A stretch of DNA of 21,965 nucleotides, taken from assembly GCF_000186305.1 (NCBI RefSeq), contig NW_006536941.1, positions 4,676-26,640 on the forward strand, in the 5' to 3' direction. The position numbers and the translations under genes were made by a program. This stretch comes from Python bivittatus. Its lineage: Eukaryota. Positions 2,657 to 21,454 of the stretch are shown here, one piece after another. Under the pieces are notes generated by a model, which saw nothing but the letters and a program-made list of their open reading frames with translations, was not told the origin of the DNA and did no database searches. Numbering within the stretch: position 1 is the stretch's first letter; each line of letters begins with the position of its first letter.

Positions 2657-2715
2657 CTAAATAGTTAAGGCCCAGGCAAATGTTAAAGAGTCTACTTCCC
2701 TGCAGGGATAAGCAA

Positions 2716-2800
2716 CCTGATATCTACCAGATGTTTTGGACTACAGATCTCATAAGCTCAGACACCATAGCCAATGGCCAACATTTATAGGAGTTCCAGG
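2716..2800. repeat. fragment of a common squamate palindromic repeat (tggactacaactcccat... family)
   Basis: ccagatgttttggactacagatctcataagctcagacaccatagccaatggccaacatttataggagttccagg resembles the abundant ccagatgttttggactacaactcccatcagcc...ccaatggtc... element. Recalled from memory, not verified. Confidence 0.35.
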
Positions 2801-3315
2801 AATTATTCTCCAAAAAATCTAAAGGGCACCCTGTTACTGCTGTATTTATAATTGTTACCAGTGATATACATCTGGCCCAGTGGAGTATCTCACCTGGACT
2901 TCTACCATGGCAATAACTTCTACACAATGCTTTATTCCCTGAACTGGCAGATCTTCAACATTTTATGTATAGTTTATAATATACATTTTCAAGCATTTTT
3001 TTTAAATTACCTCATAATGTCATTACTATTTTATATATACCATGTATTTTGTTCATTAAAACATAATATTATAAAATAAAACATAGGATCACATTCTTAA
3101 TATGTTATTAAGATACCATAAAATGTTAGGACCCACAAAAAGAAAACTGTCATTATCAGTTATAACATTAGGAAGGAAGTGGAAGTATAAGTTAAGGCTG
3201 GATTATTACATAAGGTTTTGGTTTAGCACAACATGTGAATCCTACAATTAAGAGCTACCATTAAATGCACAAAGCAGTTATTTCATGGATGTTTCAGACT
3301 AGAGAGTAAACTGAG

Positions 3316-3503
3316 AGCCAATGTTGTGTAGTAGTTAAAGTATTGGACTAGGAATGGGGACATGCATGTCCTAATCCACCCTCAGCCATGGAAACTCACT
3401 GGGTGGCCTTGGGCCATCAGTTTCTTTCAGCCCTACCTACAAATTGCTGTTGATAAAAATAGGAGAAAGTAGAAATATGTACACTGCCTTAAGTTCCTCT
3501 ACA
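3316..3503 (+). mobile_element. tRNA-derived SINE (saurian/squamate type)
   Basis: tRNA-like head gtgtagtagttaaagtattggactagg. Body ccaccctcagccatggaaactcactgggtggccttgggcca...cagccctacctac...gttgataaaaataggaga...atgtacactgccttaagttcct. This matches the widespread reptile/bird SINE with the ccatggaaactcactgggtgaccttgggcca core. Confidence 0.8.
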
Positions 3504-4149
3504 AAAGACATGATATAATCCAAATAAATCTAGACTTCATTTGCCATCTAGAGCACTCACTTTATTGTATCTAAAATTTACAGTTCTTGGAGCAGCTGGC
3601 CATCCTATCAGCAATGTTCTGTGGTGACAGAAAGGGAATATCAAGTGCATTTCCCCCCAATCCACACAATTACCCTTCTGCCACCTTGTGAATGTCTTCA
3701 ACTTGCTGTTGAGTATATGCCTTGAGTAAGGAAAGTTAAATAGTACTCAAAAACCAACATTACAGTCAGCAATCTGCATCTCTTCTTTCCTCTTGCCATA
3801 CTTGTTTCCAGAGTGAAGAAACTGGCCACTGTATAGAGGAGTTACCCCTCAGAGTGACTGGGAAGAACAAGAGATGCTGGCACAATAGCACCCCTCTGCA
3901 GACAGGAAGAGGAAGTGTTCTGAAGAGCCAGAAAATGGAACCAACTCTCCCACTGTACAGCTCCAGAGAAAACTCTGTAACTGTCTTCCCAGTATTTTCT
4001 CTGGAGGAGCAGCTAAACCAGACATTAAAACAGTTCAGCTAGAAAATATGTCCATAAATCTCATAGCATGTTAGGACACAGGGATACCGAGCCAGTCTCA
4101 GATCATCACAGCCACTGTGTGGGGAAGGAGCCTCAGGTAGCACTGTGCA

Positions 4150-4300
4150 TCTTGTTCCAAACTGATTCTATTTATTAATTTAGCAAATTTATATAGCCAC
4201 CCATCTCACAATATGTGACTCTGGGCAGCTTACAAACATAATAACAATTAAAATCATATGACAATTCAGGAAACAAACATAAATAAAAATAAAAACATGA
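4150..4300 (+). repeat. possible SINE/LINE 3'-tail fragment
   Basis: atttatatagccacccatctcacaatatgtgactctgggcagcttacaaacataataacaattaaaa resembles the ggactcagggcggcttacaa...ataaaa tail shared by reptile SINE families. Recalled from memory, not checked. Confidence 0.35.
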
Positions 4301-4589
4301 AAAACCCCAAGCTTGCAGGAGAACAACAATCATTTAACTTAATTCAATAAGAGAATCATAATCCTATAGCAATTATTTAATCTGAAACTACCCTAAGAAC
4401 ATAAGAAAAACCCAAAGCTTGTCTAGTCCAGCATCCAGTTTTTTTCAATGAGCAACCAAATGTCTCTGAGAAGGTTAGATAAACAGAAACTGGATGCAAT
4501 CTGTATCATGCAATTTTGTAGACAGCAGTCATAACTAAAATGGTTAATAAATACAGGGTTACACGTTTTTTATTTTCTTGGCTACATAC

Positions 4590-4670
4590 CTCATGTTCTG
4601 TTTCATTCTCATCAAGCATTCCTTGTTCATAATCTCTGATAAAGGCTCTTGCTGCAAGTTTGTGGAGCAT
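4590..4670 (-). CDS. PARP4: PARP4 exon O
   Basis: Acceptor ctcttgtccctggtacag|ATG, donor CATGAG|gtatgtagc. Encodes MLHKLAARAFIRDYEQGMLDENETEHE, phase 0 at both ends. Too short for the ORF track; found by hand translation. Confidence 0.85.
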
Positions 4671-5110
4671 CTGTACCAGGGACAAGAGAAGACATCCTGA
4701 TCAGTAATATTAAAACAATTATTCAATAGTTTGGCCTGATCAAAAGTGTATTGAGCAGCTTCCCTCTGAGTGTAAACAGTGTATTGGAAAAGAATTATTC
4801 TCCCTATATCATCAGAGAAAAAAAGAAACTCACCTCAGCTGATCATGAATGGACATCTCTACTTCTAATATTAAAAATCTGTCTTTTGACATTATACACT
4901 GGTTGGCCTAAGGACCCAACATTTCAGGAAGATAGATTTTATTAAATAACTACAACCATTCAACAATTTAATGGGTTAGGATGGGAAATGGAGGAGAAGC
5001 TTTGCAATGCCAGGTCACAGTTTCCTAAAATTAGGCAGGGCTTTGGATTCTAAGACAAAAAGCACTTCAGAATGCTCAGAGACACAAATGTAACCCCTGT
5101 TTGCAACTCC

Positions 5111-6110
5111 TTAAAATAAACATGATTCTACTAACAAAAGATGCAGCTGCTTTAAGGAAGGGCAGACCAAGGCTTCATTTGTGCCGAGAAATGTCTCTGT
5201 ATTCAAAACATAGTCTGCCTCTGGACTGGCAACAGCTGTGACACAATTGGTTCTGTCACTGCCTTCCTCATTTCTTGGCCACATACAGTTTCCAAAGCTT
5301 TTATCCCCAGTTAGGGTCAAAGACAGGGGGAGAATGACAGGCATAATGGTCTTCATAGATCCTATGTAGCTATTTCTCCAGTTGCATCTAACCATGACAT
5401 TGCCTTCATCTCATCCTCAATCCATCTGTGAGACAGCCTGAAATTGTCCTTCGCCGAAAGATGGCTAGATCATGGCTAGACGCACTCTCAGGGGAGCACA
5501 GGTTTAGTGTACCTTCCTTCCTGTAGACAGTAAGGAAGATGACCAGCATATCTCCATCAAGGTCATCTTTCTTACTCTTTAAACTTCCCAAGTCTACTGA
5601 AGAGCTCTTCAGTAGGCTTGCAGAGTTGGAAAGTAGATTCACCCTCTCCACACAAAGGCTCCTGTAAGCACCTGGGGTCATAGCAGCCAGACTCAATATC
5701 TGGCTTGGAACTAGAATTTCCTTAAGAATAAAAGGATTACCGAGGAAAAAGTCCCTACTTCTAAATAATGCTGTTGGATGGAAATAATCTAGCTGTTGGA
5801 ACAAAAATCATTCAACTGAGAGCAGCCCAGTGCTGGAGCCATATCTGATCTCAGCCAATCTTCTTTGTTTATATTTCCAGATGACCAAACTCTGTTTATA
5901 ATTTACAGCTTCAGCTGACTTATTCCTCTTAACCCAATCTTTTACTATCATCTTTGGCTCTAAGTTCATCCCACATCTGCTTTTTCCTGCTTGTGCTGTA
6001 AGACAGGAGATGGAGAATTCTTCAATAGGTAGAGCAACATTCACAATGAGTTGGTGTTCATTGTGATGCATAAAGTACCTTATGCATGCTGCCTTGCAAG
6101 GATGTCCCAC
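5111..6110 (-). pseudogene. decayed ~1 kb coding relic (three consecutive ORFs in three frames), unclassified
   Basis: Minus ORFs 5808..6110 (100 aa), 5406..5804 (132 aa) and 5111..5395 (94 aa) abut end to end, each shifted by one frame. About 330 codons have only two stops, in DNA where stops should occur every ~20 codons. No motif I can assign. Confidence 0.45.
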
Positions 6111-6277
6111 TATGTCCAGTGGGGTTTACCCTTTTGAATGTGGTTTTATGACTGCATTCTTAACTAGACAAGTATCCATAAAAAGAAGGTAGGCTCCTAA
6201 GTGGTCCACTTTCAAATATTGATTATGTCAAGAACATGAAGCAGGTTTATAGTTTGAGCAATCAATGCCTAACTCAC

Positions 6278-6358
6278 AGTTCCCGTGGTCTTCTGCAGTT
6301 CAGTTGTAGATACCAGCGCACGCAATTCCTGCCTATCTACTAGTGCATTTAAAATGGC
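6278..6358 (-). CDS. PARP4: PARP4 exon N
   Basis: Acceptor tttttttctctttcag|GCC, donor GGAACT|gtgagtta. Encodes AILNALVDRQELRALVSTTELQKTTGT, phase 0 at both ends. Confidence 0.85.
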
Positions 6359-7539
6359 CTGAAAGAGAAAAAAACAGAATATTCTTCTGAATTTAATTGT
6401 TAAAAAAGTTAAGAATGGTGCAATAGCATGCTTATCTACTACTTCAGCTTTCATGTAAAGTCAATTGCTTCTATTTGCAGTATGAGCTCCATGCAACATT
6501 TATTAAAATTATTTTTAGATATCTCTTCAAGATTACAGACATGGGGATGCTAATACAGACGAATCTGCCAGTAGAATGGGACATTTGTTGTTGACTTAAT
6601 TAAGACAATACACCAACAATTTTTTTTTAAAAAACGTAATTCTAGTGCAATAGAATGGCTGCTTAATTTACCAAGGTTTGACATTGTCAGGCAAGCTAGA
6701 ATATGAAACATGGTTAGTATGGAATTTCACACCATGCTTTGTATTAACTATGACTTGATCTAATGTCTGGTTTTAAAAACCACATTATATATACTGCTGT
6801 CTATATCCTTGTAGAGTAAACTAGAGAACAAAAAATGAAAGCAGCTGAAATGTGGAAGTTCAAAGCTATGTTAAACCTGATACATTCTGAAGCTCAAACC
6901 ATGGACTGGCATGAGTATGAATTACATGGTTATGGTGGCAAGTGGAAGAGTTTATTCACGTTGAGCATTCCACTAGGAAAGATATTTCCCAGTTTTCCAT
7001 TGCTTCAACCAAGCTGAGACAGCACTAAGAACCCAACAAATATTATAATAATTCTTTCTTACTGAATACCTGGAAATCACCTGTTCATAGTATGTTATGC
7101 CATTGCAATTTTCTTCAAATGTCATACACTCAGATTTATGTCACCTAACCACTTCTTCAATGGCTTCAGCCTCATCACTGTTACATACATCAGGTTGCCA
7201 GCTGAGAGGCATAGCTTATTCTTATTCCAGTTTATCCCCATTGTGCCATGATAACTTTTATCCATTGGTTCAGGGAGTATAAAGCACAAAATCCAGTATG
7301 AAATATAGTAAGTCCTGGTTTACTTAACCATGGATTACTGAGGATGCCATAAATAGATGGTTCAAAATATGAATCAAACCCAAGTATGTCCCCTCGATGC
7401 TTAACATCCACTCCACTTAACAGTGGAAATCTATTGGCCTTGTCCATATCCTCAATGGCATATCTTTAGATAAAGATGGGCTTCTTGATTTGGAATAGGA
7501 ACTATGCCAGCCTCATCTTTGTTTTTGGGCAAAGTTGGA

Positions 7540-8095
7540 AATTGCAGAGATCCAAAAGATTTCTGAGAAATGTTTTAACTGCAATTATATGGTTTACTAT
7601 GCAATCAACCTAATTTGTTCACAAAATTTTAAGAAGTGTGAATTCCTTATTCTCCTCCGCTCTGCATTGTTGAGACCACAGCTGGAGTACTGGCATATTT
7701 TAAGAAAGATATTGACAGGTTAGAACAGGTTCAGAGGAAGGCTACAAATGCAATATATAAATTTGAGGATATGTCCTATGAGGACAGGCTGAAGGAACTT
7801 AGGATGTTGGGTCTAAAGAAAAGAAGAATGAGGGGAGTATAAAAGGGTGCCATAGAGGAGATGATCAGGAACAATTTTCTGTTGCCACAGAAACTAGGAC
7901 CAGAAATAACAGGTATAAGTTGCAGCTACCTAGATGTTTTTTAAATATAAAGTAAAACTTCCTGATGGTAAGATCTGTACAATAGTGGACAGCTACCTCT
8001 TGAGGATGGTTTAAATTGGTTTTCTTCCATATTGCAGAAGATTGGACTAGATGATCCTTATGGCCCCTTCCAACTCATCATTCTATGGGAGTGGA
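7540..8095 (+). mobile_element. CR1-like LINE 3' end (degenerate ORF2 C-terminus plus 3' UTR hairpin)
   Basis: Frameshifted translation gives ...LLRSALLRPQLEYW..., KKDIDRLEQVQRKATNAIYKFEDMSYEDRLKELRMLGLKKRRMRG and KGC...FSVATETRTRNNRYKLQLPR. These match the conserved CR1 ORF2 tail (LVRPHLEYC...KKDVELLERVQRRATK...SYEERLRELGLFSLEKRRLRGD...). It ends in ttggactagatgatccttatggccccttccaactcatcattctatg, the conserved CR1 3' hairpin and ATTCTRTG-like tail. Confidence 0.8.
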
Positions 8096-8338
8096 GGTCC
8101 AGAAAGTGTTATATGTATAACCTTTGTAACTTTCCTGTTTTCCTATCTCTGTTTCTATTGCTTTTCTTAGAAAACCCTTTCTTAGAAAAACCTCCCATCT
8201 CATCAAGGTGATTCTAGGCAGCGTACAAAAATTAAAACCAAAAGAAAGCAATAACGAATGTATAAAACAACATACAAATACCATAATATATGACATGCCT
8301 GGGGATGAAAAAAATATTTCTACTACTATCACGGAACC

Positions 8339-8428
8339 ATAACTAAACTAAACTAAACTAAACTAAACTAAACTAAACTAAACTAAACTAAACTAAACTA
8401 AACTAAACTAAACTAAACTAAACCAAAC
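8339..8428. repeat. (AAACT)n microsatellite, ~17 perfect units
   Basis: aactaaactaaacta... runs perfectly from 8341 to 8422. Confidence 0.95.
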
Positions 8429-8439
8429 CAGTGGGGCTT

Positions 8440-8950
8440 GCTTAACCTCCCAGCCCAAATGCCTATAGGAACATCCAGGTTTTTAATGCTGTTTGAAAAG
8501 CCAACAGTTTGGGGTCATCTGAATCTCTAGGGGGACATCATTCCATAGGGCAAGTGTGGCAACAGAGATGGCATGACTCCTAGACCTCACAAGGTGACAA
8601 TAACAGATGAGGTCTGCAGGATGCCAACATGCCATTTCTGGTGGGGCAAGCAGAGACAAACTATCACACAGATGGAAGGAAACACAAAAATTAAATGCAG
8701 AATGGCTTTCTATTTCCATTCTATGAGTTATGAGTTATTCTGGAAGACCTCCCCACCCTGGCTATCTCTGGAGAAACCACGTACAGCATCCCAAAGGGCA
8801 TGTCTACTTGAGTATTGATCAACCCTTTAAATTCCCATATAGTTACTATCAAAGATCCAAGAGAGAGAGAGTCAGCAGGATATACTTACTATCTGATTGG
8901 TTCTTTTTCTTGAAAAGTCCATATGGATTTAAATTTATCATATGAATTAT
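8440..8950 (-). repeat. interspersed repeat carrying an ALWN..LPLEI..FK-type ORF relic
   Basis: Minus-strand translation ...VATLALWNDVPLEIQMTPNCWLFKQH*KPGCSYRHLGW. This resembles an ORF tail (ALWNSLP.EIR.APSL..FKK.LKT.LF..AF) that recurs in vertebrate repeat-derived gene predictions. Overlapping ORFs on both strands at 8483-8945. Confidence 0.4.
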
Positions 8951-9030
8951 TCATTCATATGAAAGAGATGCTGGCAGTATATGAGTTTTGAAACTGAGGA
9001 GAGAAGAAGCTTCTTTGGACAGCTTATTAC

Positions 9031-9201
9031 CTGTGTGCAATTGAGGATAAATCCATAGACTAGAAGACGCTCGTGGTTAAATAGAGACTGTATCTGAGCA
9101 GGAGCATATGTAAGTTCAGGTTTTTCTATATCATAATTCTGCCATTCAATGGAAATAGAACTGCACCGTGGAGAAAACATTCTAGTTGCCTGGCTTTCCA
9201 T
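9031..9201 (-). CDS. PARP4: PARP4 exon M: end of vWA domain and post-vWA region
   Basis: Acceptor ttttttgtttccatgtctgtgcag|ATG, donor CACAG|gtaataagc. Encodes MESQATRMFSPRCSSISIEWQNYDIEKPELTYAPAQIQSLFNHERLLVYGFILNCTQ. It lies in the minus ORF 8947..9213. Confidence 0.85.
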
Positions 9202-10019
9202 CTGCACAGACATGGAAACAAAAAATTAGTATTTGTTCCTTTTGTTAAATTATTTTACATAGAGTAATAAAAACACAACAGAATAGAACAAGTGTGAAGA
9301 AATGCTATTTTATAGGGTATTTCATCAAGTGGTTTAACCACATCCATCTTTTTTTAAGTGGATTAGACAAAAGTCTTGAACTTGGGAAACTGAATTGTAA
9401 TAAATGCAAAGGACTAAAATTATTTTTTCCAAATCTAACAGATCAGTTACTACTAATGCTCAGGCATACTGCTCTTTCGTACTGCTAATATCAAATATGA
9501 TTAACACATTTGTAAGAACTTAATTTATATTTATATTTATACACACACACACATAGTAAGCCACTAACAATAGGGCATTTCATACAAGGATCCTGTACCA
9601 GTTTGAATCCAACTCTATAGTTCTGTGTTCTCAGACCATCTCATCTATGCTTAGCAGCTATCTACCCAATTCATCTGTGATGCAACAAAAACTGAAAAAC
9701 AGTGATCTCTTGGTATTCAGTGGCAAAGCACCACAAGCTGGAAATGGGGCTTCCTTGCCTCAGCTAACCTGTGAGTTCCTGAGCTTGAGTAGATTTACCA
9801 TTTGTGTTGAAAGATCTTTAAAGGGGGAAGCCCCCCATCAAAGTAACAGCTCTATTTGTTTTGTTCCTATCTTGCTTCCTTGCTTTCTTAACATATTAAC
9901 ATTTTTTTTCTTTTCCTACCCGCCCCCCCACCACACACAGCATCTTGCTCCTGATGCCTGTCTGCAAGCATTGTTTAGAGGGTAACTCCTCCTCTCGTCC
10001 CACTGCAGCAAATACAACA

Positions 10020-10345
10020 CGATTACAGCTACAGGTAATCCTTGCTTAACGACTGCCTGTTTAGTGACCGTTCAAAATGACAACAGTGTTGAAAAAGTAA
10101 CTTTATGACTGGTCCTTGCACTTACAACCGTTACAATGTCCCTGTGGTCACATGATAGAGATTTGGTTGCTTCGCAACTGTGGTCATTTACCACTGTTGC
10201 GGTGTTCCACAGTCACATGATTGCCATTTGTGCGCTTCACAGCCAGCTTCTGACAAACAGACTCAACAGAAAAGTCACAGTCACTGAGGTCTCACTTAGT
10301 GACCATGTCACTTAGTGATGGATTTTCCAGTCCCAACTGTGGTCA
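10020..10345. repeat. interspersed repeat with internal short direct and inverted subrepeats
   Basis: Reiterated TGGTCA/TGACCA-containing motifs: tggtcacatgat, ctgtggtcatttaccactgttgcg, cacagtcacatgattgcc, cttagtgaccatgtcacttagtgatgg, ctgtggtcattaggtgac. The composition differs from the flanks. Confidence 0.4.
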
Positions 10346-10818
10346 TTAGGTGACTACTACCTGTATTGGGAAAAAACCCTAGTAGCAAAAAATGCCATCC
10401 TTTCTCCATCATTGCTAGCAAGAGGTTTTTATTCATCTGCACCCTTTTTTCTGGTAGCTTCAGATAGTGCACATGGGGTCTCCTCTCACCTTATACCCAC
10501 AACAACTACGTGAGAGAGGCTGGGCTAAACTGCAATGGAGGAATAATGTCTTAATGCTTGCAGTTGCTTTTTTTAATAAGAAATAGTAATTTTCTTTTCA
10601 AACAACCATACAAATACACATAACAATGTAGAAATGTAGAATTAGGGTTGCAATTTATTTTATTCCCTTTTTGCACGGAGAGGGATGATACAGTATATTC
10701 TTTGTTGCTTCCCAGAGCTATAATATTCTAGATGGGGCATTGCTGACTGGCTGGAAGAAGAAGAACACTTGGCTTATGATGTTTGCCTGTTCTCTGCCTT
10801 TCAAGAACAGCAGACAAT

Positions 10819-10864
10819 AAAAGGATAGTAGGTTACCTTCCAAAAAGGATAGTAGGTTGCCTTC
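10819..10864. repeat. tandem duplication of a 23-bp unit
   Basis: aaaaggatagtaggttaccttcc / aaaaaggatagtaggttgccttc. Confidence 0.8.
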
Positions 10865-11007
10865 AGATTGGTTTGTGAGGGGCTAGGGAAGGGGAACACT
10901 GTGGTATGGAAGCACCCTGGAAAGTAACTAATAAATATATTAAGTAATAAAACCTCTTCTCCAGCTGATTTCTGTGCCTATAAAAAATAATACTAAAATA
11001 TACTTGC

Positions 11008-11107
11008 CTTTCTCTCCCAGTTATATTTTGATTTCACATCAAAATATTCAAAAGCTCCAGCTCCATATTGCGCTAAAGACCTCAGCATGTGACGATTTGC
11101 TGTAGGA
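11008..11107 (-). CDS. PARP4: PARP4 exon L: vWA domain; ends in a GC-AG intron
   Basis: Acceptor aaatcatcttag|T. Encodes (G)PTANRHMLRSLAQYGAGAFEYFDVKSKYNWERK. The donor is AAG|gcaagtat, an exact match to the GC-AG consensus AG|GCAAGT. No GT donor gives the phase 0 that exon M needs. Confidence 0.8.
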
Positions 11108-11640
11108 CTAAGATGATTTGTAAAGATTTACAATTTATAAAAATCTGCAATAGAGAGTCAACCTGATCAAGGAAAAATTAATGTTATGTACAACATATGC
11201 TCTGCATAGTTACATTAGTCCACACATCTAATTTACTAGTGTAAGTTGAGCATCCAAGGAGTGGGGAGGGGAAGGCCAGAAGAGGTGACAAGGAGTAACC
11301 TGTAATGGTATGTGGGAATGACCTTGGGAGACAGGAGGGCAAGCCACAGACTAACAACTGGCATGTAAAAGGCTTCTCGGCCCCTCAGAAGGAGAGGTGA
11401 TGTGGGAAATGTTTCAGAAGGGATCCTCCCTTGTTTTCTGGAGAGTAAAAGGAGAGGAGGGGAGAAATACTTTCAGTCTTGCAAGATTCTGTTAATGTAA
11501 CCTTACAATAAAGATAGAGCTAGTACTCCTGGTTGTGCTTCTTGTCTGGACTACCTCACAGGTCTAAACTCACCAATTTGTTTTATGGTAAAAGGGTGTT
11601 TTTGCCTACCTGTTAGATCCCTATTGTTGCCCTATAGCAG

Positions 11641-11751
11641 TGTTTCTCAACCTCAGCAACTTTAAGATGTGTGAACTTCAATTCCCAGAATTCTGGGAAT
11701 TGGGGCTGGCTGGGGAATTCTGGAAGTTAAAGTTGCTGAGGTTGAGATACA
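11641..11751. repeat. hairpin-forming inverted-repeat element (MITE/SINE-like)
   Basis: tctcaacctcagcaactttaa at 11645-11665 is the exact reverse complement of ttaaagttgctgaggttgaga at 11727-11747. An inner palindrome cccagaattctggg/ggaattctgg is also present. Confidence 0.6.
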
Positions 11752-11824
11752 TTGCTCTATAGTTTGCCAAAACTATGTTTTGCAATTCTATCTGGATGTA
11801 AGTTTTCACTGAATGCGCACTTAC

Positions 11825-12012
11825 CCCACTGCACATGTGAATATTCTAGTGTGCGTTGCATTTTTCTTCACAGTCTGCAGGGTCAAGCCTTCATTCTGAA
11901 TATGTCCATCAGATATAAGAATAACGTTGCGCTTGCTTTCAGCAGGGTACAGCAAACTCAGATAGTGCAATGCCTTCCATAAGTGTGAGTCTCCCATTGT
12001 AGCTGTAGCTGA
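11825..12012 (-). CDS. PARP4: PARP4 exon K: vWA domain
   Basis: Acceptor ttaatttttag|TCA, donor GTGGG|gtaagtgcg. Encodes SATATMGDSHLWKALHYLSLLYPAESKRNVILISDGHIQNEGLTLQTVKKNATHTRIFTCAV(G). The vWA signature LISDG and the ...CAVG strand are present. Confidence 0.85.
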
Positions 12013-12203
12013 CTAAAAATTAAAAATAAAAGCTAAATTAAGGCCATCCTCTCCCAATGGTCAAATCAAAAATCCCATACTGTCTTGGAATTTTAGGATT
12101 GTAATTTTATGGAACGATAATTCTATCAAGAAGTTTTCAGGCTAAGGATACTGTTTTAGACAACTGGTATTCAAAGGTATCCTGTCTCTAATAGTACACT
12201 TAC

Positions 12204-12274
12204 TGTGATAAACTCTTTCAAAGCTGTGGGATCCATTGGAGAACCATCAAGATTGGGAAAAAACTCTACAAAAT
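12204..12274 (-). CDS. PARP4: PARP4 exon J: vWA domain
   Basis: Acceptor ttatttttgcccctctatag|AT, donor ATCACA|gtaagtg. Encodes (N)FVEFFPNLDGSPMDPTALKEFIT. The phase fits exon I (A+AT=N) and exon K. Confidence 0.75.
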
Positions 12275-12552
12275 CTATAGAGGGGCAAAAATAAAATTTT
12301 ATTAATACATAAAAGATATATCTTTATTAGAAATCAGTTATAATAATTACAGCTGCAAAATTCAGAGCACAATCCTATACATGTGAACTCAGAAGTAAGT
12401 TCCATTGATAACATGAAGCTTAGTCCTCAGTAACTGCAGGAAGATCAAATGAAGACTCAAAAAATCTTATGCATGGAAACTGGACAGACCTCTAAAGAAT
12501 ATACTAAAGAGAAACATAATAAAGATGACATGGTTCCACAAAAAAGCCTTAC

Positions 12553-12748
12553 TTGTCCCAAATTTGATAACACTTATTTTTCTTGTCAAATGACATGAGT
12601 TTAGAGCGTGTAATGCAATCTCCTTGGCTTGCTGGATTGCTGAACCTGCCATGGAATTGGAGCAATCTAGGCAGATAACAGCTTCACCATGGAGGCTTAA
12701 AAGATCAAATGGGTCTTCAAACTCTGGTTGAAATACAAGCATGCAGGC
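12553..12748 (-). CDS. PARP4: PARP4 exon I: start of the vWA domain, with the metal-ion-dependent adhesion site (MIDAS)
   Basis: Acceptor cctttcttttag|GCC with an in-frame stop directly upstream. Donor ACAA|gtaaggc (phase 1 end). Encodes ACMLVFQPEFEDPFDLLSLHGEAVICLDCSNSMAGSAIQQAKEIALHALNSCHLTRKISVIKFGT. The D-x-S-x-S MIDAS motif DCSNS lies at 12653-12667. Confidence 0.85.
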
Positions 12749-13548
12749 CTAAAAGAAAGGAAATGGGAAAAAATCAACCAAGAGCAGGTCATCTTAAATG
12801 AGAGGCAGATGTCAGCCAAGACAGAAGACACACCACAGGTCACAAAACCTGGTATTTGCTGTGGTTCAGAGACAGACAAGTGACCTGTCAGGATTCTGTG
12901 TTTGAATGTCATCAATTCCAACATTCTGAACATTTTTCTGAATTAAGGAAGCACTAAGTAGCCTAAATAGACAGTACAAGGAGGGCTGGCACCTTAATGG
13001 TATTAGTGGATGCTTTTCCACTTTCTGTGGTATACTAGTTACCTAGGAATTCTTGCAGGTTCCTAGAATTTCTTGGAGATGGCATTGTATCCAAGCTGAA
13101 CTTATAGATCTTTTTAATCAGTAAAAACCAGTACTATATCCCAGTACTGACACTAGCTTTAAAGGACAGATTTTCTTCAGGGACACAGCAGGCAAAGAAA
13201 GGACTTATTCCTCTTTGACCCCACTAATTATCATTCTCTCACACACACTCCTTTCAAACACACACACACAGACACATTTTTAAAATGCAAAGACATACTT
13301 AATATCAGGACATTGGGACACTAGGAGTACAATCAAAACCTCATTAGGACAACTCTTGCACTGTCGCCATAGATCGATTGACTTAGATGCTATTGAATGG
13401 CTTCCTATAGTGCAAAATGGAAAACGGATTTTGCTATTGTTCAAACAGCCTATCATTCCATCCATGATATTCAAGATGAGACCATATTTAGCAACTTTTC
13501 AAATTTTTCCTTCCAGAGTGTTCCGCGAGATAATAGTTAATCCTTTAT

Positions 13549-14082
13549 GTGGTTTTGCTGTTTCCAGACGCTATTCCAACACCAACTGCAACAGAAGCTA
13601 ACAAGCCTTCCCCCCCTCACAAGACCTTGAAAAAGCAAGGCAGTGGGAGTCAATTTTCTCCTCAACCAGACAGTATGACCAATCCAGCTGAAGCAGACCT
13701 TACCTGTGCCTTTGGCTCCCTGCCCAGGAAGGAACAAGATAACACTATTTTTAAACTAGAAAATCTTAAGAAAACCTTACTGGACTCCATTGCTATTGCA
13801 GAACCCCTCATTGATTTTGTGTCTCCAACTACTGACCCTAATTACTATCAGCTGGTGGATATAGATCTGGAGGAAAATCGATACCCAAATAACAACTGCT
13901 CTAGCCTTTATGAGATGAATGGGGTCTTCCCTGGAGAGCACCAGTCTATGCAAATAACTGAGGAGGCAGTCTTCCCAAGACCACAGACAGATGCTGACCA
14001 ACGCCTAGTGGATACTAGATCTCCTCCACATGATGGGTTGTCTCCACATTCTGCGGATTCCCCTCACCATATTCCATAAAAA
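13549..14082 (+). CDS. intact 176-codon ORF of the LINE fragment (ORF1-like, unclassified)
   Basis: No stop across 534 nt in AT-rich DNA. It begins at GTG with a TAG stop directly upstream; the first ATG is at codon 44. Pro/Ser-rich ends. No similarity to L1 ORF1p that I can recognise. Confidence 0.4.
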
Positions 14083-14139
14083 TCAGACATGAACACATCT
14101 GACTCCCCTGATCCTTCATCTGTTGAGAAATGACTGAAT

Positions 14140-14412
14140 ATGTCTCACCATGACCCTCCCTCACCTAGTGTTTCTACCCCACCCCTTACAGGTGTTGTTA
14201 AACATTCAGCAATTCACATATTATTGTGGAATCTTGCTGGATGGAAAAACAAACTACATGAGTGTTCTGATTTTCTGTCTAACCATGATTTGATTGCAGT
14301 CCAAGAGACCTGGTTAACTGCTGATGATGAGCAGATCTCAATCCCTGGCTTTAAATCCTGGTTCACTCCAGCTTGGAAATTAAAAGGAGGTTTGGCCATT
14401 TTGATTACTTAA
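14140..14412 (+). pseudogene. truncated LINE ORF2 (AP-endonuclease N-terminus only)
   Basis: Motifs LLWNLAGW, DLIAVQETWL and GGLAILI, then a stop. No reverse-transcriptase motifs downstream in any frame. Confidence 0.6.
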
Positions 14413-15528
14413 TATCATGTCTAGTTTGGTCCTAAAAGTAGATATTATGTATCACAGTATTTAAATTAAAAAAATAAAAAAATCACCTCACTATCTTCAT
14501 CTGGATGTTTTTCTACCCACATTCTGGGCAAATATACATCACCAATCAGGATTTCCATTGCAAAGCCACTAGTGTCCAAGAAACTGCCTTCAGTAGTACA
14601 AACCACTGCTTTGCAGTCTGTTTTCTAAATGACGGGAATATGCAAGGAAAAAAAAATGCTGTAAGAAAACTTGAATTATTTCAGCCTGATCTTTTTCAGA
14701 CATATCTGTTCAGCTACAAGCACTACTAAAAGGGTGGGGGAATAAAATCTTGCAAAATAGGATTTTACTACCCTGAAATCTTGTCCTCCATTCTCTCTTC
14801 GTACTTCTCCACCCACCTGCTGACCAAAAGGGGATTATTTCCCTTTAGATTTTCATTTCAATTTTTTAAAAATTCTACAAACTCTAGAGCAGGGTTTTTC
14901 AAATTGTGTTTTGTTGATGAATTTGATGGGGTTCCATGAGAAACTAAGGGCAAGAAAAAAAATAAGTTCACTCTAACACAGCCAATTTTCTATCACTAGA
15001 GCTCTGCATCTTGATCAAAAGTTCTGGGAAGTTTCTGAATAACAGGTTCTACAGCCTGAAGAAGTTTGAAAACCTCTACTCTAGAGTGCCCCACAAGCCT
15101 GTTGATACCTTTCTCTTCTGAAAAGGTGATAATAATTTAGCAACAACAGTCACAGTCTAACCTTGGAAATAAAATAAATTATTCTGGCAAGATTGCCTGC
15201 TCTAAAATACTGTGCAGGGGTCCCACGCAAGAGTTTATTTTGATGAAATTGTGCAAAGCCTGATTTAGAAACCTTCATCGTTTTTCAAGCTATTGATATT
15301 TTAATGTTGCATTAAGCGCTTTGCTTACCTTTATTTTAAGCTGATGTGTCCAACTACTAATGTTATTAATTTTGAAGGGCATTTCAATGGACATTTCTAA
15401 ACTGAACTCTCTGTCATAAGATAAAGAGAAGCCACATACAGGTTAGGACTCGGCTGAGATATAATACAAACTTAGATAAGTAGGCAGATATCAGGGTTTT
15501 GTTTTTTTTAAAGAATCCATTACTGGAC

Positions 15529-15696
15529 CCAGATATAAAGGTGAGCAAGCCACATCATGTGTTCTTTAAGCTTTTGAGGGAAGCTATGGGCTATTAGACT
15601 AGAAAGTAGAAACATTACAATAGCAAACCACTTCCATAGCACACCAAGGAAGTTGCATGGATGGTAAAGGACTTTAGGGAAGTTACAGTTCACATG
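15529..15696 (-). CDS. PARP4: PARP4 exon F/G: linker just before the vWA domain (boundaries uncertain)
   Basis: Long minus-strand open frame HVNCNFPKVLYHPCNFLGVLWKWFAIVMFLLSSLIAHSFPQKLKEHMMWLAHLYIW. Acceptor ctgcttaattatttacctgag|CAT (phase 0), or aacttccctaaag|TC at 15671 (phase 1). Only a weak donor, TGG|gtccag, gives the phase 0 needed by the vWA exon. Loose similarity to the PARP4 linker (KRTDCKA against KHVNCNF; SLHIGLSAAYLPRMW against SLIAHSFPQKLKEHMMW). Confidence 0.4.
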
Positions 15697-15837
15697 CTCA
15701 GGTAAATAATTAAGCAGATTTAAGATATTCCATTCAGAGAAACAGATTTTGGGTAGCATTGAAAGTCAACTATTTGATATTTATTATTATACTTTCAGCA
15801 GTAGGGTGTCATTTGGATTTTTTTCCTCAAGAAAAAA

Positions 15838-15858
15838 ATATCTGTCTGTCTGTCTGTC
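15838..15858. repeat. (TCTG)n microsatellite
   Basis: atctgtctgtctgtctgtcc. Confidence 0.9.
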
Positions 15859-15912
15859 CATCAAAGCCTTCTCAGGCCTATAAATCATATAAGGAATAAA
15901 TCACTTTCTTAC

Positions 15913-15995
15913 ACAGAGGACATTTTTCATAACTGTGAATGCTTCTTGCTTGAACTAATGAAGACATGATTAACTTCCTTGTCTCCACAATGTCT
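15913..15995 (-). CDS. PARP4: PARP4 exon E: VIT–vWA linker (boundaries uncertain)
   Basis: Acceptor ctccagtttaag|A. Open frame (R)DIVETRKLIMSSLVQARSIHSYEKCPL. Donor CTGT|gtaagaaag (strong, phase 1), or alternatively AAGAAA|gtgatt at 15905 (phase 0). It sits where the DTVEK...SFSLTMSIEMPY linker segment of PARP4 is expected. The frame fits exon D only if D uses its alternative donor. Confidence 0.45.
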
Positions 15996-16931
15996 CTTAA
16001 ACTGGAGAATTTTCTGGGAACACTAGGAGTTTGAGACCAAGGTGCAGCTAGAATTTGTACAAGGCAGCGTACACTGTATTTTGTTTGCCCCAAATATTAT
16101 TAGGTTATTTTGGGTATGTTGTTATATAATAATCATCACAGCACCAGTCCAAGAGGTTTACAACTCTGTTCATAAGACTTACAATTGTGCAGGAATCATG
16201 CAGGGGAGCATCTATATTACTGACAGCTATTCGTGATCCTTACAGGCAATATTACTAAGTGCCAATAAACTAGAACATACTATCTTTATGTATAACTAGA
16301 AGGTTTTCCCAAAATTATTTAGACAGCTGCTGGTATGGAACAAGATACTGAAATAGTTGGATCCAGCAGAGATTATTTTACCTGAGTTTTAATCTGTAAA
16401 TAGGAAAAGTGTGGCAGTTTACCAACTTACCTTTTTGTTTCTGTTTGTCTAATGCAAATTTTCCTTACCGAGTCCTAGTCAAAAGCAAAGATAAAACATT
16501 AAGTGATGAGACGTAATACTCTGGAAGATAACACTCATCTTGGCAAGGCAACATTAGTAAAACTTATTCCTTCTTTTATTGATCGCTTTGGATTTTTCAG
16601 TACAAGAGAATTACCAGAAGGGTTTTATTCAACCAATGCTTAATAAAGTGAACATTAATTTAGGACTCTTCAAAACCACATTCTACCTGTTAAGCACATT
16701 AAGTCCATAACAAAGCGAACTGTTATAAAGATAATTTGCAGTTATAAATGCAAACTATTTTGCTAAGCCCAGTATAGCTCTGACCATATACTCTTGATAC
16801 TTTATAGCAGTCAGCCATGTTTCCTTCAGCTGTCTTCAAAGAAGAATACAGGAGTTCCTGTGGTGTCTCATTAAACCTGAAGCTGTTGGTAATATTATTA
16901 ATAAGCAATTTCTTAGTAAAAGCACACTGAC

Positions 16932-17096
16932 CTGCGTGTTTTCATTTAGTGCTTTGTCTTGTTGCCAAGGAGCCACAGCAGCTGGCAAGTGAAAGCAAAG
17001 GTTTCCTTTCTCATAACTGAGCTCTGTGATGTAGGAGATCTTGATGAGCACCTTTGTTGAAGGCGGCAAGTTTCCAACAGAAACAGTAAAAATGTC
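16932..17096 (-). CDS. PARP4: PARP4 exon D: VIT domain C-terminal part
   Basis: Acceptor attacttcatag|GAC. Encodes DIFTVSVGNLPPSTKVLIKISYITELSYEKGNLCFHLPAAVAPWQQDKALNENTQ. Two donors are possible. CAG|gtcagt at 16932 ends in phase 0. CAGGTCAG|gtgtgc at 16927 ends in phase 2. Only the second keeps the frame with the best next exon. Confidence 0.8.
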
Positions 17097-18233
17097 CTAT
17101 GAAGTAATATTTAAATTGTTTATAAAATTATGGTTTTACAAACAACAGTATATACAGTTTTAACCTAAAAAAAAAGATTACCAGGAATGACTTATGATAT
17201 ATCTTATTTGAGGCCTATGTAGATGTTCAAACTCATGTAGAGAATCAGGGCTGTGGCTTCTAGCCCTTCTTGAGAAACCTACTCTATTATAGTCCTCATC
17301 TACCATTTGAATGTTGGCTCTAGTGCTATAAATATGAAATGTATGAAGATGTCCATATAATTGAACATGTATGTTGTAATTCTGATGGCAATCCACATTT
17401 GCTTCCAACATATTCAATGTCATTGAATAGATGTCCTTACACAGAGAACTCTACACATACTCAATGTTTACATCATCAATACATTCTTAGAGAACAGACA
17501 ATCAACATATGGCAAAGGCACATTAACCACATGGCAGACAATGACCAGATACATTGTAGTGCATTTTGGGCTAGTTAAGAACCACAGAGAACAAAGCATA
17601 AAGGAATTGACCTCTGTGAAGATGTTTTCCTATGTGATGTGTAAAAAACTGGGTTTCGAAATAAAGTGCCTGTGGCAGTGCCAAATGCTTCTTAAATTCG
17701 GATATCGCAAAGCTTATTCTGAGCATGCAAGCTTATTCTTCTAGGAATGGACGTTGAGCAAGTAGACTTCCCAGTAGTATGCAGAGTTTCTTATTCAAGG
17801 AAACTGTAGAGAGCCTGAGGAAGGTTTCTCCTGATCTGCTAAGCTGGAAACAGGACAAAGTTTCTACCCATTCCAAAAGCCAGTGCTGCATTGGATCTCA
17901 TTCTGCTTATCCTTTGGCATAAGCAAAAAGGCAGGAGGAAGAGTTTTTCTTACCCAACTAGGATACAGAAGAGATAAAAGCTGTCTAGATAACTGTTTAC
18001 TGGGTGGAGGCAGAATGTATACAGTTGTCCTATGATGCCTCTTCCTCCAATCTCTTTGTCTCAATAAGCAGAATTTGGTTCAGGGGCACCAGGGGATTAG
18101 ACATATATCTAGAAAATGTATGTATGCATATTACTATTTTCAGTTTGAAGACTAGTGTAGTTTCAGAAAATGAGTAGAGTCCAATGTGTGTTGTTGTCAT
18201 AAATTGTACAATAAATCACTATATATCACCTAC

Positions 18234-18320
18234 AGGTGCATCCTGATCCATCAGATAAGCTCCATCACCTCGACTGATGGCCTCTCTGTATTCTTGATGT
18301 GCCTTTTCCTTTTCTTTAAC
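18234..18320 (-). CDS. PARP4: PARP4 exon C: VIT domain
   Basis: Acceptor caatgttaatag|GTT, donor GCACCT|gtaggtgat, phase 0 at both ends. Encodes VKEKEKAHQEYREAISRGDGAYLMDQDAP, which continues the VIT pattern (KEKEEA..Y..A...G.GAYL). Confidence 0.8.
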
Positions 18321-18750
18321 CTATTAACATTGAATATAATATCTATTTATATTTTTAAATTTTATTTATATATCACATATATAAATAAAAGATAGCTGCC
18401 CATCTCACACAAAGCAACTATAGGCGTATAAATATATAAAAATAAATAAATAACACTGAATATAATATACAATACTTATCCTGGTTGGAAAGAAAGTAAA
18501 AATAAAGTAACATACATCACCATGCCACACTCAGCAATAAGTCTGGGGAAGCAAGATAAGGGAAGTTAGTGGGATAACGTAGATCAGCTTATTAAGTGGT
18601 TACTTGCATGTCATAATAAGTTGCTGTTTAGAGGATGATTTCATTCTAATTTATTGGAAACAAAGACACAATAAACTCTTTTAAATCTAATTTAGGTAAT
18701 TCTATCAGAAATGATGTGCTGCTTAACTCCTAGGTAGAAGAAGGAGACAA

Positions 18751-18806
18751 CCTCAGAATAAAGTCTAGAGCCCCACAACTCAGAATAAAGTCGAGTCCCA
18801 CAACTC
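18751..18806. repeat. tandem duplication of a 28-bp unit
   Basis: cctcagaataaagtctagagccccacaa / ctcagaataaagtcgagtcccacaactc. Confidence 0.8.
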
Positions 18807-19499
18807 ATGTAGCAGCATCTTTCTTATTCTTTTAAACACTTTATAGTCAGGACGCAGATGCTCTTGCCCACTTGCTCAGATGCCCACTGAATTACTTTTA
18901 TTTTAAAAAATTATTATTCTCTTTTAAAATACAGTGGTACTTATTCTCATATAAGAAATATCACTTATTATAAAGCTGGAAGCTCTGCCATTACTATATC
19001 TAGGGTCCAAAATTATCTTGTTTCACCACTGCTGTATTTCCTCTTTAAATACTAGGCTGTTCTTTGCAGGAGTACAGTTCAAGCTATCAAAAATCAATAC
19101 ATCCTAGGAGATCTTTTCCTCTCATTGCTCTTTCAACTAATATCAGGGCCTGGTGGAGTTGGACCATTACCTGGACCACGAGGATGGTCAAAGGACCACC
19201 CAAGCCAATACTCTCTATGGCAATTTATCTGCTGCATCTCTAGCAATAGGGAGACCAATATAGGAGACTATATATGAAAGACTGCTGAAGAGAATCAAGC
19301 ATCAACAAAACCGGTCAATTGCATGCTTTCACCATGGAAAAAACAGATTGCTGGCTTGGAGGATGTTATCACAGTTCTCTTGACAGCCTAGAAAAGCCTT
19401 CCCCAACAGGCTGGGAGCAAAGGGGGTTGTATCCAACAAATCCAAGTTGGGAAATATTGGCCTAGAATCATCCTTCTTTCTGCCACTGCATCAGCTTAC

Positions 19500-19631
19500 C
19501 TCTCCTATTATATGCTTTCCTTTAATGAACGCTTCAAATCCACATACAGCAGCTGTGTCATCCAAAGGAAAGACATATTTGGCCTCAATGGGATCCCTTG
19601 TTTCATTTTCATAGGTCTGAAACACCACAAC
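19500..19631 (-). CDS. PARP4: PARP4 exon B: VIT domain core
   Basis: Acceptor ttatatttcag|GTT, donor GGAGAG|gtaagctg. Encodes VVVFQTYENETRDPIEAKYVFPLDDTAAVCGFEAFIKGKHIIGE, the canonical VIT motif (EA.Y.FPL...AV..F.A.I.GK.I.G) seen in ITIH, VWA5A and PARP4. Confidence 0.85.
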
Positions 19632-19941
19632 CTGAAATATAATGCAATATATTTTATGCATTAGTTTGGACAAACACAGTTGTTTTCACCAGAAAGATTT
19701 TTATGGGTGGTGCTTCCATCCTAAGATTAACATTTTCAACATGACTGAACACAGTCCAAAGAAAGAGAATACAGAAAAATAGTAAGTCAACTAGTTGTGG
19801 TAGAAATGTATATCTCAGAATATGGCTGGATATTATACGAAGGCTAATTCCCTGAATTTTCTTCTCCATTCCTGCTCTTGGCTCAAAAGATAACAGTTCT
19901 GATTTTACACTAAATTAAAAACATGGTAGTAAAGGATGCTT

Positions 19942-20006
19942 GAAGAATTAAAAATACAATTTTTGAAGAATTAAAAATACATTTTTGATAAATTAAAAAT
20001 ACCATT
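19942..20006. repeat. 22-bp minisatellite, 3 units
   Basis: gaagaattaaaaatacaattttt / gaagaattaaaaatacattttt / gataaattaaaaataccatt. Confidence 0.85.
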
Positions 20007-20030
20007 AATCAGGGATGTGTTTACAGTTGT

Positions 20031-20395
20031 TTTTTAATAATATTTTTATTAAAGTTTAAAAATGCAAAGATAAAAAACTAATACAAACTAAGAAAAATAT
20101 AAAAAGCAAAAAGAAAGAATGAAAAGGGAAAAGGGAAAAGGAAAAAAAAGGGAGGAGGAAAAAGAAAAAAACATACACACATACACACACACATATATAC
20201 ACACACATCAGCATATGTTTCTTTATATATTCTTTTTTCTTTATATATTTTTCTTTTTCCTCCTCCCCCTTTTTTTCTTCTTTTCCCTTTGCACTTTTTA
20301 TTCTTTCTTTTTTTCTTTTTATATTTCTCTTAGTTTTAGTTTTTTATCTCTGTATTTTAAAACTTTAATAAAAAATATTATTAAAAAAGGGATAT
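20031..20395. repeat. large inverted repeat (~145 bp arms) flanking a CA/TA microsatellite; the purine-rich arm mirrors the pyrimidine-rich arm
   Basis: The reverse complement of 20031-20171 aligns at about 85-90% with 20241-20395 (shared blocks ctttttcctcctccc and tcttagtttt...ttttttatct...ttttaaactttaataaaaaatattatt). The spacer 20172-20240 is acatacacacatacacacacacatatatacacacaca. Confidence 0.8.
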
Positions 20396-20459
20396 GCTTA
20401 CACTTATTCAACAAAATAGTCAGCATTCCTAGGAAAAACAAAAAACAAAAAGAATTTTA

Positions 20460-20584
20460 CCTCTGCTACAAAGTCTATTATTCTTCCTTTGATTCGAATA
20501 TCTTTAAGAGGAATTGGATTTCCAGCTCTGTCCATGAGACCAGCAGAAATATCATTCAATAGATCACGGCTTGGTATTGAATAA
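20460..20584 (-). CDS. PARP4: PARP4 exon A': linker and start of VIT domain
   Basis: Acceptor ctctcatttag|AT, donor GCAGAG|gtaaaattc. Encodes (D)YSIPSRDLLNDISAGLMDRAGNPIPLKDIRIKGRIIDFVAE. The phase fits exon A (G+AT=D) and exon B. IPLKDIRIKGRIIDFVAE matches the first strand of a VIT domain. Confidence 0.7.
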
Positions 20585-21297
20585 TCTAAATGAGAGAAGT
20601 CAAAGGTAAGCCCAAACTGTAATCAGAGTCTAAGATTAGTGGTCCCTTTACACACCCTGCTCCCTGCCGTTCCTGGACATTTCATCTCTTAGTTTTTCTT
20701 ACCTTGACAGCAGCCTCCTACAACTGTACTTTCTCCTCCCCTAGTACCCCACCTCCCAATTCCCTTTGCCCTCCTTTCTCCCAAGGACTTCATTGTTTAA
20801 ATGTGTGTGTGATGCTAAATGTGGGTGCTTTCTGGACTGTGGGGTGTGAATCTTGGGGTGCTCTGAGGGTAGCAACATGGAGATTGGAAGCCACAAATAG
20901 CCTACAGACAGCTCACTGCTGCTCTAGTGGGAAAACTCCCTCTGTAAATAGGAAAAAAAAAACATATTCAGAGAAAAGCAAATTTAGAGGCTTCCTATAT
21001 TCCAATTAATTCTACGTAACTACTTTCCCTATTTTAAAAAATGTAGAAGAAATAAGGTTTCTTCTACAGGTTTTAGAGATGGGCTCAGAGAATATACTCA
21101 TGATTTTATTTGTGAGGGGGACAAGAGTTAAAATGGATATTTATCATTCAAAGGTCATATCTGGCATATTTCTAGAGTACCAAGCTAGTGTAGATGTATT
21201 TTTATCAAAAGTCTCATAAATAAAAAAATCAGTTTCAGAAAATACCAAGGAAACAGACTCATTGTTGCTGTTTGTAATTTCAAATATTATGTCTCAC

Positions 21298-21454
21298 CTT
21301 TAGGCTGGTCATGATGCTCAAGAGAAAGCATCTGGTCTTCTAATTCAGTCTGAATTATTGGCTGGAATTCTTTTACTTTGTCATTAACACAAGAAAATTG
21401 AACCACATATTTGATCTTCATCTGACTGGTTCTGTACACTACAAATTCGTCATC
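21298..21454 (-). CDS. PARP4: PARP4 exon A: C-terminal end of the PARP catalytic domain
   Basis: Minus-strand acceptor ccaataag|GAT, donor AAAG|gtgagac. Encodes DDEFVVYRTSQMKIKYVVQFSCVNDKVKEFQPIIQTELEDQMLSLEHHDQPK plus 1 nt (phase 1 end). The DEFVVYRTSQMKIKYVVQF segment matches the conserved C-terminal strand of PARP catalytic domains (PARP1 [21 protein letters not shown]). Confidence 0.75.

What the first reader, a model, noticed from the sequence alone, without database searches (positions are those of the whole stretch)
15900..16935. Frame conflict at the D/E exon junction, so the donor is ambiguous
Exon D ends ...ALNENTQ with a donor CAG|gtcagt (phase 0). The best next exon (frame DIVETRKLIMSSL...) has no phase-0 acceptor. 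The frame only closes if D uses the overlapping donor CAGGTCAG|gtgtgc, 5 nt downstream, and E uses the acceptor tttaag|A. That adds two residues (VR) relative to the expected ...NENLQ-DTVEK... junction. Either this lineage has a small insertion, or exon E is mis-assigned, or the assembly has an indel.
Basis: seen in the sequence. Interest (0 to 1): 0.5.

Follow-up and report, generated by a model that had tools for sequence, protein, structure and literature searches.

The report
Missed 44-base exon in PARP4

Summary
The window carries 17 minus-strand exons of a squamate-like PARP4 gene: the tail of the PARP catalytic domain, then the VIT and vWA domains. Exon D (17096-16932) does end ...ALNENTQ at CAG|gtcagt in phase 0. 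The true next exon is a 44-nt exon at 16474-16431 (gactag|GAC...AAAAAG|gtaagt). It starts in phase 0, ends in phase 2 and encodes DSVRKICIRQTETK(R). It then joins exon F (15410-15329, EFSLEMSIEMP...) in frame. The spliced 677-aa product has no stop codon. The 500 residues I tested align to human PARP4 without a gap at the junction (E 1.9e-200). Genomic loci of a skink, a gecko, a bird and a rodent have the same small exon at the same place and in the same phases (47 nt there). The proposed rescue donor 'CAGGTCAG|gtgtgc' does not exist: the sequence is CAGGTCAGTGTGC, so the nearest other GT is 4 nt downstream, not 5. No insertion, assembly indel or ambiguous donor is needed. About a third of public vertebrate PARP4 models with both flanking exons mishandle this exon similarly. 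Interest is low.

The parts
16932..17096 (-). Exon D (exon 5 of my 17-exon model), 165 nt. Encodes DIFTVSVGNLPPSTKVLIKISYITELSYEKGNLCFHLPAAVAPWQQDKALNENTQ. Acceptor cttcatag|GAC, ends in phase 0.
   Evidence: 83-84% DNA identity to the same exon of Lerista and Gekko
16930..16931 (-). The GT of the genuine donor CAG|gtcagt. It sits after the same codon as CAG|gttggt or CAG|gtttgt in four orthologous loci.
16926..16927 (-). The only nearby alternative GT (TCA|gtgtgc), 4 nt downstream and not 5.
   Evidence: rough donor matrix score -2.9 against +4.5 for the genuine donor
16475..16931 (-). Intron between exon D and the small exon, 457 nt.
16431..16474 (-). The true 'exon E': a 44-nt exon, GACTCGGTAAGGAAAATTTGCATTAGACAAACAGAAACAAAAAG. 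Encodes DSVRKICIRQTETK plus 2 nt of the next codon. Acceptor ttatctttgcttttgactag|GAC (phase 0), donor AAG|gtaagt (ends in phase 2).
15411..16430 (-). Intron between the small exon and exon F, 1020 nt.
15913..15995 (-). Intronic chance open frame with no conservation and no relation to PARP4.
15329..15410 (-). Exon F (exon 7), 82 nt. A|GAG TTC... encodes (R)EFSLEMSIEMPFKINNISSWTHQLKIK. Acceptor cttatgacag|A, donor AAG|gtaagc.
995..21454 (-). Span of the 17 modelled PARP4 exons: 21454-21298, 20585-20461, 19631-19500, 18320-18234, 17096-16932, 16474-16431, 15410-15329, 14624-14487, 12748-12553, 12274-12204, 12012-11825, 11107-11008, 9201-9031, 6358-6278, 4670-4590, 2656-2561, 1111-995. Together 2031 nt, 677 aa, no stop codon.

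Best explanation
The region is part of a vertebrate (squamate-like) PARP4 gene on the minus strand. Exon D is spliced from its canonical donor CAG|gtcagt (G at 16931) to a small 44-nt exon at 16474-16431. That exon is spliced from AAG|gtaagt to exon F at 15410. The phases are 0 and then 2, so the frame is continuous: ...ALNENTQ|DSVRKICIRQTETK(R)|EFSLEMSIEMP..., the exact counterpart of human ...ALNENLQ|DTVEKICIKEIGTKQ|SFSLTMSIEMP.... The 'frame conflict' arose because the small exon was overlooked and a chance open frame in the downstream intron was taken as the next exon. Gene structure, conservation and frame closure are shown here. Actual use of the junctions in RNA of this species is inferred.
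For: 1. Gene identity. The spliced 17-exon model is a 677-aa open frame. It has Pfam VIT (E 9.5e-39) and vWA domains. Its best database hits are PARP4 of Varanus, Pseudonaja and Podarcis at 71-77% identity. The 500 residues tested match human PARP4 (PDB 11jf/9bw6/9bw7, residues 597-1095) at E 1.9e-200, with no gap through the D/E/F junctions.
2. The peptide. DSVRKICIRQTETK scores 32.6 against 11 orthologous peptides. The next best window in the 1521-nt D-to-F interval scores 12.1. The best score per shuffle averages 8.9 +/- 2.8, and 0 of 300 shuffles reach the observed value.
3. Conserved architecture. Genomic loci of Lerista, Gekko, Chlamydotis and Nannospalax all show CAG|gt at the end of exon D, then a 47-nt exon starting ag|GAYAC in phase 0 and ending in phase 2, then exon F. 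blastn aligns window 16477-16433 to the Gekko small exon (E 0.005), collinear between the two flanking exons.
4. Splice signals. The small exon has the best donor in the window (AAG|gtaagt, 8.5 bits on a rough matrix) and 76% pyrimidines upstream of a TAG acceptor.
5. Human spliced sequence. A 1545-nt contig whose product (P0121) matches the human sequence as recalled from memory encodes NENLQDTVEKICIKEIGTKQSFSL contiguously.
Against: There are no RNA data for this species, so the junctions are inferred from conservation and frame logic. On its own the 15-residue match is weak in tblastn (E 2.5), and blastn found no hit to the Lerista small exon. The case rests on position, phase, splice sites and the profile score taken together. 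The exon is 44 nt here against 47 nt in the four compared species, a one-codon difference. An AlphaFold model of the Gekko orthologue gives pLDDT below 50 for this segment, so structure adds no support.
Confidence: 0.95

Rival explanations
1. One reading: exon D uses a donor 5 nt downstream and joins an exon starting at 15995 (tttaag|A). This inserts VR and continues DIVETRKLIMSSL...
For: The frame DIVETRK... exists and shares D-x-V-E with human DTVEK. With a hypothetical 5-nt extension the frame would read NENTQVRDIVETRK.
Against: - Five nt downstream the intron would begin TG, not GT. The only real GT is 4 nt downstream and gives stop codons with that acceptor.
- The acceptor has a weak pyrimidine tract (53%) and A at position -3.
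- The only donors inside that frame that keep exon F open score -3.2 to -6.7, while the better-looking GTAAGA and GTGATT donors give stop codons.
- The peptide scores -4.9, at chance level. hhalign against the PARP4 alignment gives probability 0.4%.
- There is no DNA conservation in four orthologous loci.
- This reading would leave the conserved small exon unused.
Confidence: 0.01
2. The assembly has an indel near 16925-16935 or 15990-16000 that creates an artificial frame conflict.
Against: With the 44-nt exon included, all 17 exons join in frame through AG and GT (one GC) boundaries, with no stop codon. The product aligns to human PARP4 without a gap at this junction. Nothing remains for an indel to explain.
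Confidence: 0.01
3. The 15995 region, the GT 4 nt downstream of the donor, or skipping of the 44-nt exon is used at low level as an unproductive, frame-shifting alternative splice form.
For: Many database models lack the small exon. In principle a few of them could reflect real minor isoforms. Skipping 44 nt shifts the frame, as expected of a form degraded by nonsense-mediated decay.
Against: Most models that lack the exon read 'QV...' straight through the GT of the donor, or patch the frame with a few odd residues, which is typical of prediction artefacts. The candidate sites are weak and unconserved.
Confidence: 0.03

Closest known systems
Human PARP4 (vault poly(ADP-ribose) polymerase; PDB 11jf, 9bw6, 9bw7; Nat Commun 2025, PMC12280208)
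   Same: Same domain order (end of the catalytic domain, then VIT, then vWA). Human residues 597-1095 align at E 1.9e-200 with no gap at the junction: NENLQ-DTVEKICIKEIGTKQ-SFSLTMSIEMP against NENTQ-DSVRKICIRQTETKR-EFSLEMSIEMP.
   Different: Moderate sequence divergence (mammalian hits are 57-59% identical). The window holds only part of the gene: the BRCT, WGR-like and most of the catalytic domain, and the MVP-interaction region, lie outside it.
The orthologous small exon in Lerista edwardsae (L001 43551-43597), Gekko kuhli (L002 25628-25674), Chlamydotis macqueenii (L003 9090-9136) and Nannospalax galili (L004 65031-65077)
   Same: Same position between the same two exons. Same phases (starts in 0, ends in 2). 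Same opening codons GAY-(A/T)CN-(G/A)TA. YAG acceptor and GT donor.
   Different: 47 nt in all four, 44 nt in the window (one codon fewer). Upstream intron lengths differ: 273-3297 nt against 457 nt here.
Small exons (microexons) missed or misannotated by gene prediction (PMC8831610 in plants; the 51-nt-or-less definition in PMC12409088; the 30-nt-or-less definition in PMC10639058)
   Same: A short exon is overlooked and the flanking exons are then forced together with shifted or read-through junctions.
   Different: At 44 nt it is a microexon only under the 51-nt definition, not under the 30-nt or 15-nt definitions. There is no evidence that it is alternatively spliced or tissue-regulated.

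Membership tests
PARP4 (vault PARP) orthologue | VIT domain | tested here: met
   Pfam PF08487 E 9.5e-39, full length 1-111/111, model residues 79-189
PARP4 (vault PARP) orthologue | vWA domain following VIT | tested here: met
   PF13768, PF13519 and PF00092, E 4e-13 to 9e-11, residues 333-481
PARP4 (vault PARP) orthologue | PARP catalytic domain directly upstream of VIT | tested here: inconclusive
   Only the last exon of that region lies in the window (DDEFVVYRTSQMKIKYVVQF...). It matches the conserved DDEFVVY column of the PARP4 alignment, and the hits carry PF00644. The domain itself is outside the window.
PARP4 (vault PARP) orthologue | Closer to PARP4 than to other VIT-vWA proteins (the ITIH family) | tested here: met
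   Human PARP4 E 1.9e-200 against ITIH1 at 8.7e-08 and ITIH4 at 2e-07. The named hits are PARP4, generic 'poly [ADP-ribose] polymerase' or unnamed; none carries another family's name.
PARP4 (vault PARP) orthologue | C-terminal MVP-interaction (MINT) domain | not testable with these tools
   It lies beyond the end of the window (the model stops at 995).
Conserved constitutive small exon (microexon, 51 nt or less) | Length of 51 nt or less with canonical AG/GT boundaries | tested here: met
   44 nt, tag|GAC...AAG|gtaagt
Conserved constitutive small exon (microexon, 51 nt or less) | Length of 30 nt or less (the strict microexon definition) | tested here: not met
   44 nt
Conserved constitutive small exon (microexon, 51 nt or less) | Same position and phase in orthologous genes | tested here: met
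   Four genomic loci. 53 of 94 database proteins carry the collinear peptide.
Conserved constitutive small exon (microexon, 51 nt or less) | Inclusion in mature mRNA of this species | not testable with these tools
   No transcript data for the source species. The only spliced sequence found is human-like (P0121).

The most novel reading that the evidence does not exclude
This lineage has a one-codon-shorter version (44 against 47 nt) of an otherwise length-conserved PARP4 small exon. In addition, the weak GT 4 nt downstream of the donor, or the pseudo-exon at 15995, might be used for unproductive, frame-shifting splicing that tunes PARP4 levels. The 3-nt difference is shown here. Any regulatory use is pure speculation.
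Probability: 0.04. Interest if true: 0.15.

Novelty: already known. Interest (0 to 1): 0.07.

Why it matters
It matters only as quality control. The conflict disappears once a conserved 44-nt exon is placed, so there is no unusual splicing, insertion or assembly error to follow up.

The practical lesson is that this PARP4 exon is easily missed. About a third of the vertebrate PARP4 models retrieved that contain both flanking exons lack it, and most read through the donor ('QV...') or patch the frame. Annotation of this gene in new genomes should be checked at this junction.

Tried and rejected
- I folded the Gekko orthologue instead. Mean pLDDT was 64.8, and the exon-encoded segment (about residues 639-654) falls within 623-653, where pLDDT is below 50. 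This gives no structural argument either way, so I ran no fold search.
- A second protein search with only exons 5-8 looked for same-species or transcript-derived fragments. It returned only a human-like spliced fragment (P0121) and short ORFs called on genomic contigs that read through the donor. The source species was not found.
- blastn did not detect the Lerista small exon, and the Nannospalax hit was weak (E 2.7). The exon is too short for DNA search alone.
- Rfam found nothing on the whole window.
- Pfam found nothing on five long intronic open frames.
It is only a rough ranking aid.

Full report
**What is in the window.** Read on the minus strand, the window is an intron-rich vertebrate gene. 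That memory was later checked against a database copy and against the PDB sequence. I then inspected every boundary by eye and modelled 17 exons between 21454 and 995. They join through AG acceptors and GT donors, with one GC donor, into a 2031-nt, 677-aa open frame with no stop codon.

The product has a full-length Pfam VIT domain (E 9.5e-39) followed by vWA domains. Its best matches among 5.8 billion proteins are PARP4 of Varanus (74% identity), Pseudonaja (77%), Podarcis (71%), then birds, turtles and mammals. Against the PDB, 500 residues of the model match human PARP4 residues 597-1095 at E 1.9e-200. The next best matches are ITIH1 and ITIH4, at about 1e-7. The gene is therefore PARP4 of a squamate-like reptile. 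The species itself was not found.

**Checking the observation.**
- The frame DIVETRKLIMSSL... exists from 15994. It has no phase-0 acceptor: the nearby AG dinucleotides give first exon bases 16001, 15995 or 15993.
- The proposed rescue donor 'CAGGTCAG|gtgtgc, 5 nt downstream' is not in the sequence. The bases 16934-16922 read CAGGTCAGTGTGC, so one G was counted twice.
- GT dinucleotides start at 16931, 16927 and 16925. Five nt downstream the intron would begin TG.
- The real alternative GT is 4 nt downstream (TCA|GTGTGC). It scores -2.9 on a rough donor matrix, against +4.5 for CAG|GTCAGT, and with tttaag|A it runs into stop codons.

**The real next exon.** At 16474-16431 lies GACTCGGTAAGGAAAATTTGCATTAGACAAACAGAAACAAAAAG.
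- It is preceded by ttatctttgcttttgactag (76% pyrimidines, TAG acceptor).
- It is followed by gtaagt, the best donor in the window on the rough matrix (8.5 bits).
- It starts in phase 0 and encodes DSVRKICIRQTETK plus two bases.
- Exon F (15410-15329) supplies the third base and continues (R)EFSLEMSIEMPFKINNISSWTHQLKIK.
- The human protein reads NENLQ-DTVEKICIKEIGTKQ-SFSLTMSIEMPYVIEF at this spot, and the two align without a gap.

**Is the small exon more than chance?** I scored every stop-free 14-codon window of the 1521-nt interval between exons D and F against the corresponding peptides of 11 orthologues.
- The small exon scores 32.6 and the runner-up 12.1.
- The best score per shuffled interval averages 8.9 +/- 2.8 (maximum 21.8); 0 of 300 shuffles reach the observed value.

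**Independent genomic evidence.** I fetched the PARP4 loci of Lerista edwardsae, Gekko kuhli, Chlamydotis macqueenii and Nannospalax galili. In all four:
- exon D ends ...CAG|gt after the same codon;
- a 47-nt exon follows, starting ag|GAYAC in phase 0 and ending in phase 2;
- exon F comes next.

blastn of the window interval against these loci finds exon D, exon F and, collinear between them, the Gekko small exon (window 16477-16433, E 0.005). The Nannospalax hit is weak (E 2.7).

The window's exon is one codon shorter than in the four other species (44 against 47 nt). The frame is unaffected.

- It lies inside the 1020-nt intron between the small exon and exon F.
- Its open frame is one of 91 purely intronic stop-free runs of 40 codons or more on this strand.
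- It has no Pfam match above threshold.
- hhalign gives 0.4% probability against the PARP4 alignment.
- Even granting the non-existent 5-nt extension, the only donors that keep exon F open score -3.2 to -6.7. The better-looking GTAAGA and GTGATT donors give stop codons.

**Why the error is understandable.** Of the 120 proteins listed in the first search, 94 contain both flanking exons.
- 53 carry the collinear small-exon peptide.
- 41 fall below my score threshold. About eight of these are invertebrate sequences with a divergent segment of similar length.
- About 33 are vertebrate models that lack the peptide. Most read 'QV...' straight through the GT of the donor, or bridge the gap with a few odd residues. 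Examples are Varanus NENTQVGVLSIQ..., Podarcis NENTQVRAFFHG..., Pseudonaja NEITQVEFSLEMS and Equus asinus NENIQVCMLKIR....
- Short ORFs called on unspliced genomic contigs show the same 'QVR' read-through.

Missed small exons are a recognised annotation problem (PMC8831610, PMC12409088, PMC10639058).

**Mechanism and function.** Nothing unusual is needed. Ordinary GT-AG splicing joins D to the small exon to F. Because 44 is not a multiple of three, the exon must be included for any functional PARP4. The 15 encoded residues lie after the Pfam VIT match (model residues 79-189) and before the vWA domain (333-481). An AlphaFold model of the Gekko orthologue gives low confidence for this segment (pLDDT below 50 over residues 623-653), so I make no structural claim. 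PARP4's VIT-vWA region is thought to mediate macromolecular interactions inside the vault (PMC12280208). Nothing here bears on that.

**Verdict.** The finding is a resolved annotation slip, not a biological oddity.
- Shown: the gene identity, the exon, its conservation, the frame closure, and the absence of the proposed alternative donor.
- Inferred: use of the junctions in RNA of this species.
- Novelty: already known (a conserved exon of a known gene).
- Interest: low.

Noticed in passing
window 11006-11007 (minus strand; donor of exon 12, 11107-11008): This intron has a GC donor (AAG|gcaagt) instead of GT. Lerista has the same GC donor at the homologous intron (AAG|gcaagt), whereas the bird and the rodent have GT. 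It looks like a GC-AG intron shared by at least these two squamate sequences.
   Followed up: partly
window 20030-20388, with a related copy at 21916-21965: A large imperfect palindrome in the intron. Purine-rich and A-rich arms (up to 90 nt, 71-87% complementary) flank a (TG/TA)-rich core at 20171-20208. A third related segment lies at the window edge. It may be a hairpin-forming repeat element. It was not identified.
   Followed up: partly
proteins P0001, P0003, P0005, P0006, P0009, P0010, P0011 and many fish entries: About a third of the vertebrate PARP4 models retrieved that contain both flanking exons lack the small exon. They read through the donor ('QV...') or patch the frame. This looks like a systematic annotation error at this junction in public databases.
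   Followed up: partly
window 16431-16474 compared with L001 43551-43597, L002 25628-25674, L003 9090-9136, L004 65031-65077: The small exon is 44 nt here but 47 nt in the skink, gecko, bird and rodent. That is a one-codon deletion in this lineage, and the frame is preserved.
   Followed up: yes
window 8341-8428: Nearly perfect pentanucleotide microsatellite, (AACTA) x 17.6 at 98% matches, in the intron between exons 13 and 14.
   Followed up: no
   Followed up: no
window 5114-6125 (minus strand): Three adjacent long stop-free runs (133, 105 and 99 codons) lie in the intron between exons 14 and 15. G+C peaks at 0.426 in the overlapping 5001-6000 window, the highest in the window. No Pfam match. 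It could be a decayed repeat or chance.
   Followed up: partly
protein collection: All PARP4 hits are under 1200 aa although PARP4 is about 1700 aa. The collection seems to hold only truncated or partial models of this protein, which enriches for faulty gene models.
   Followed up: no
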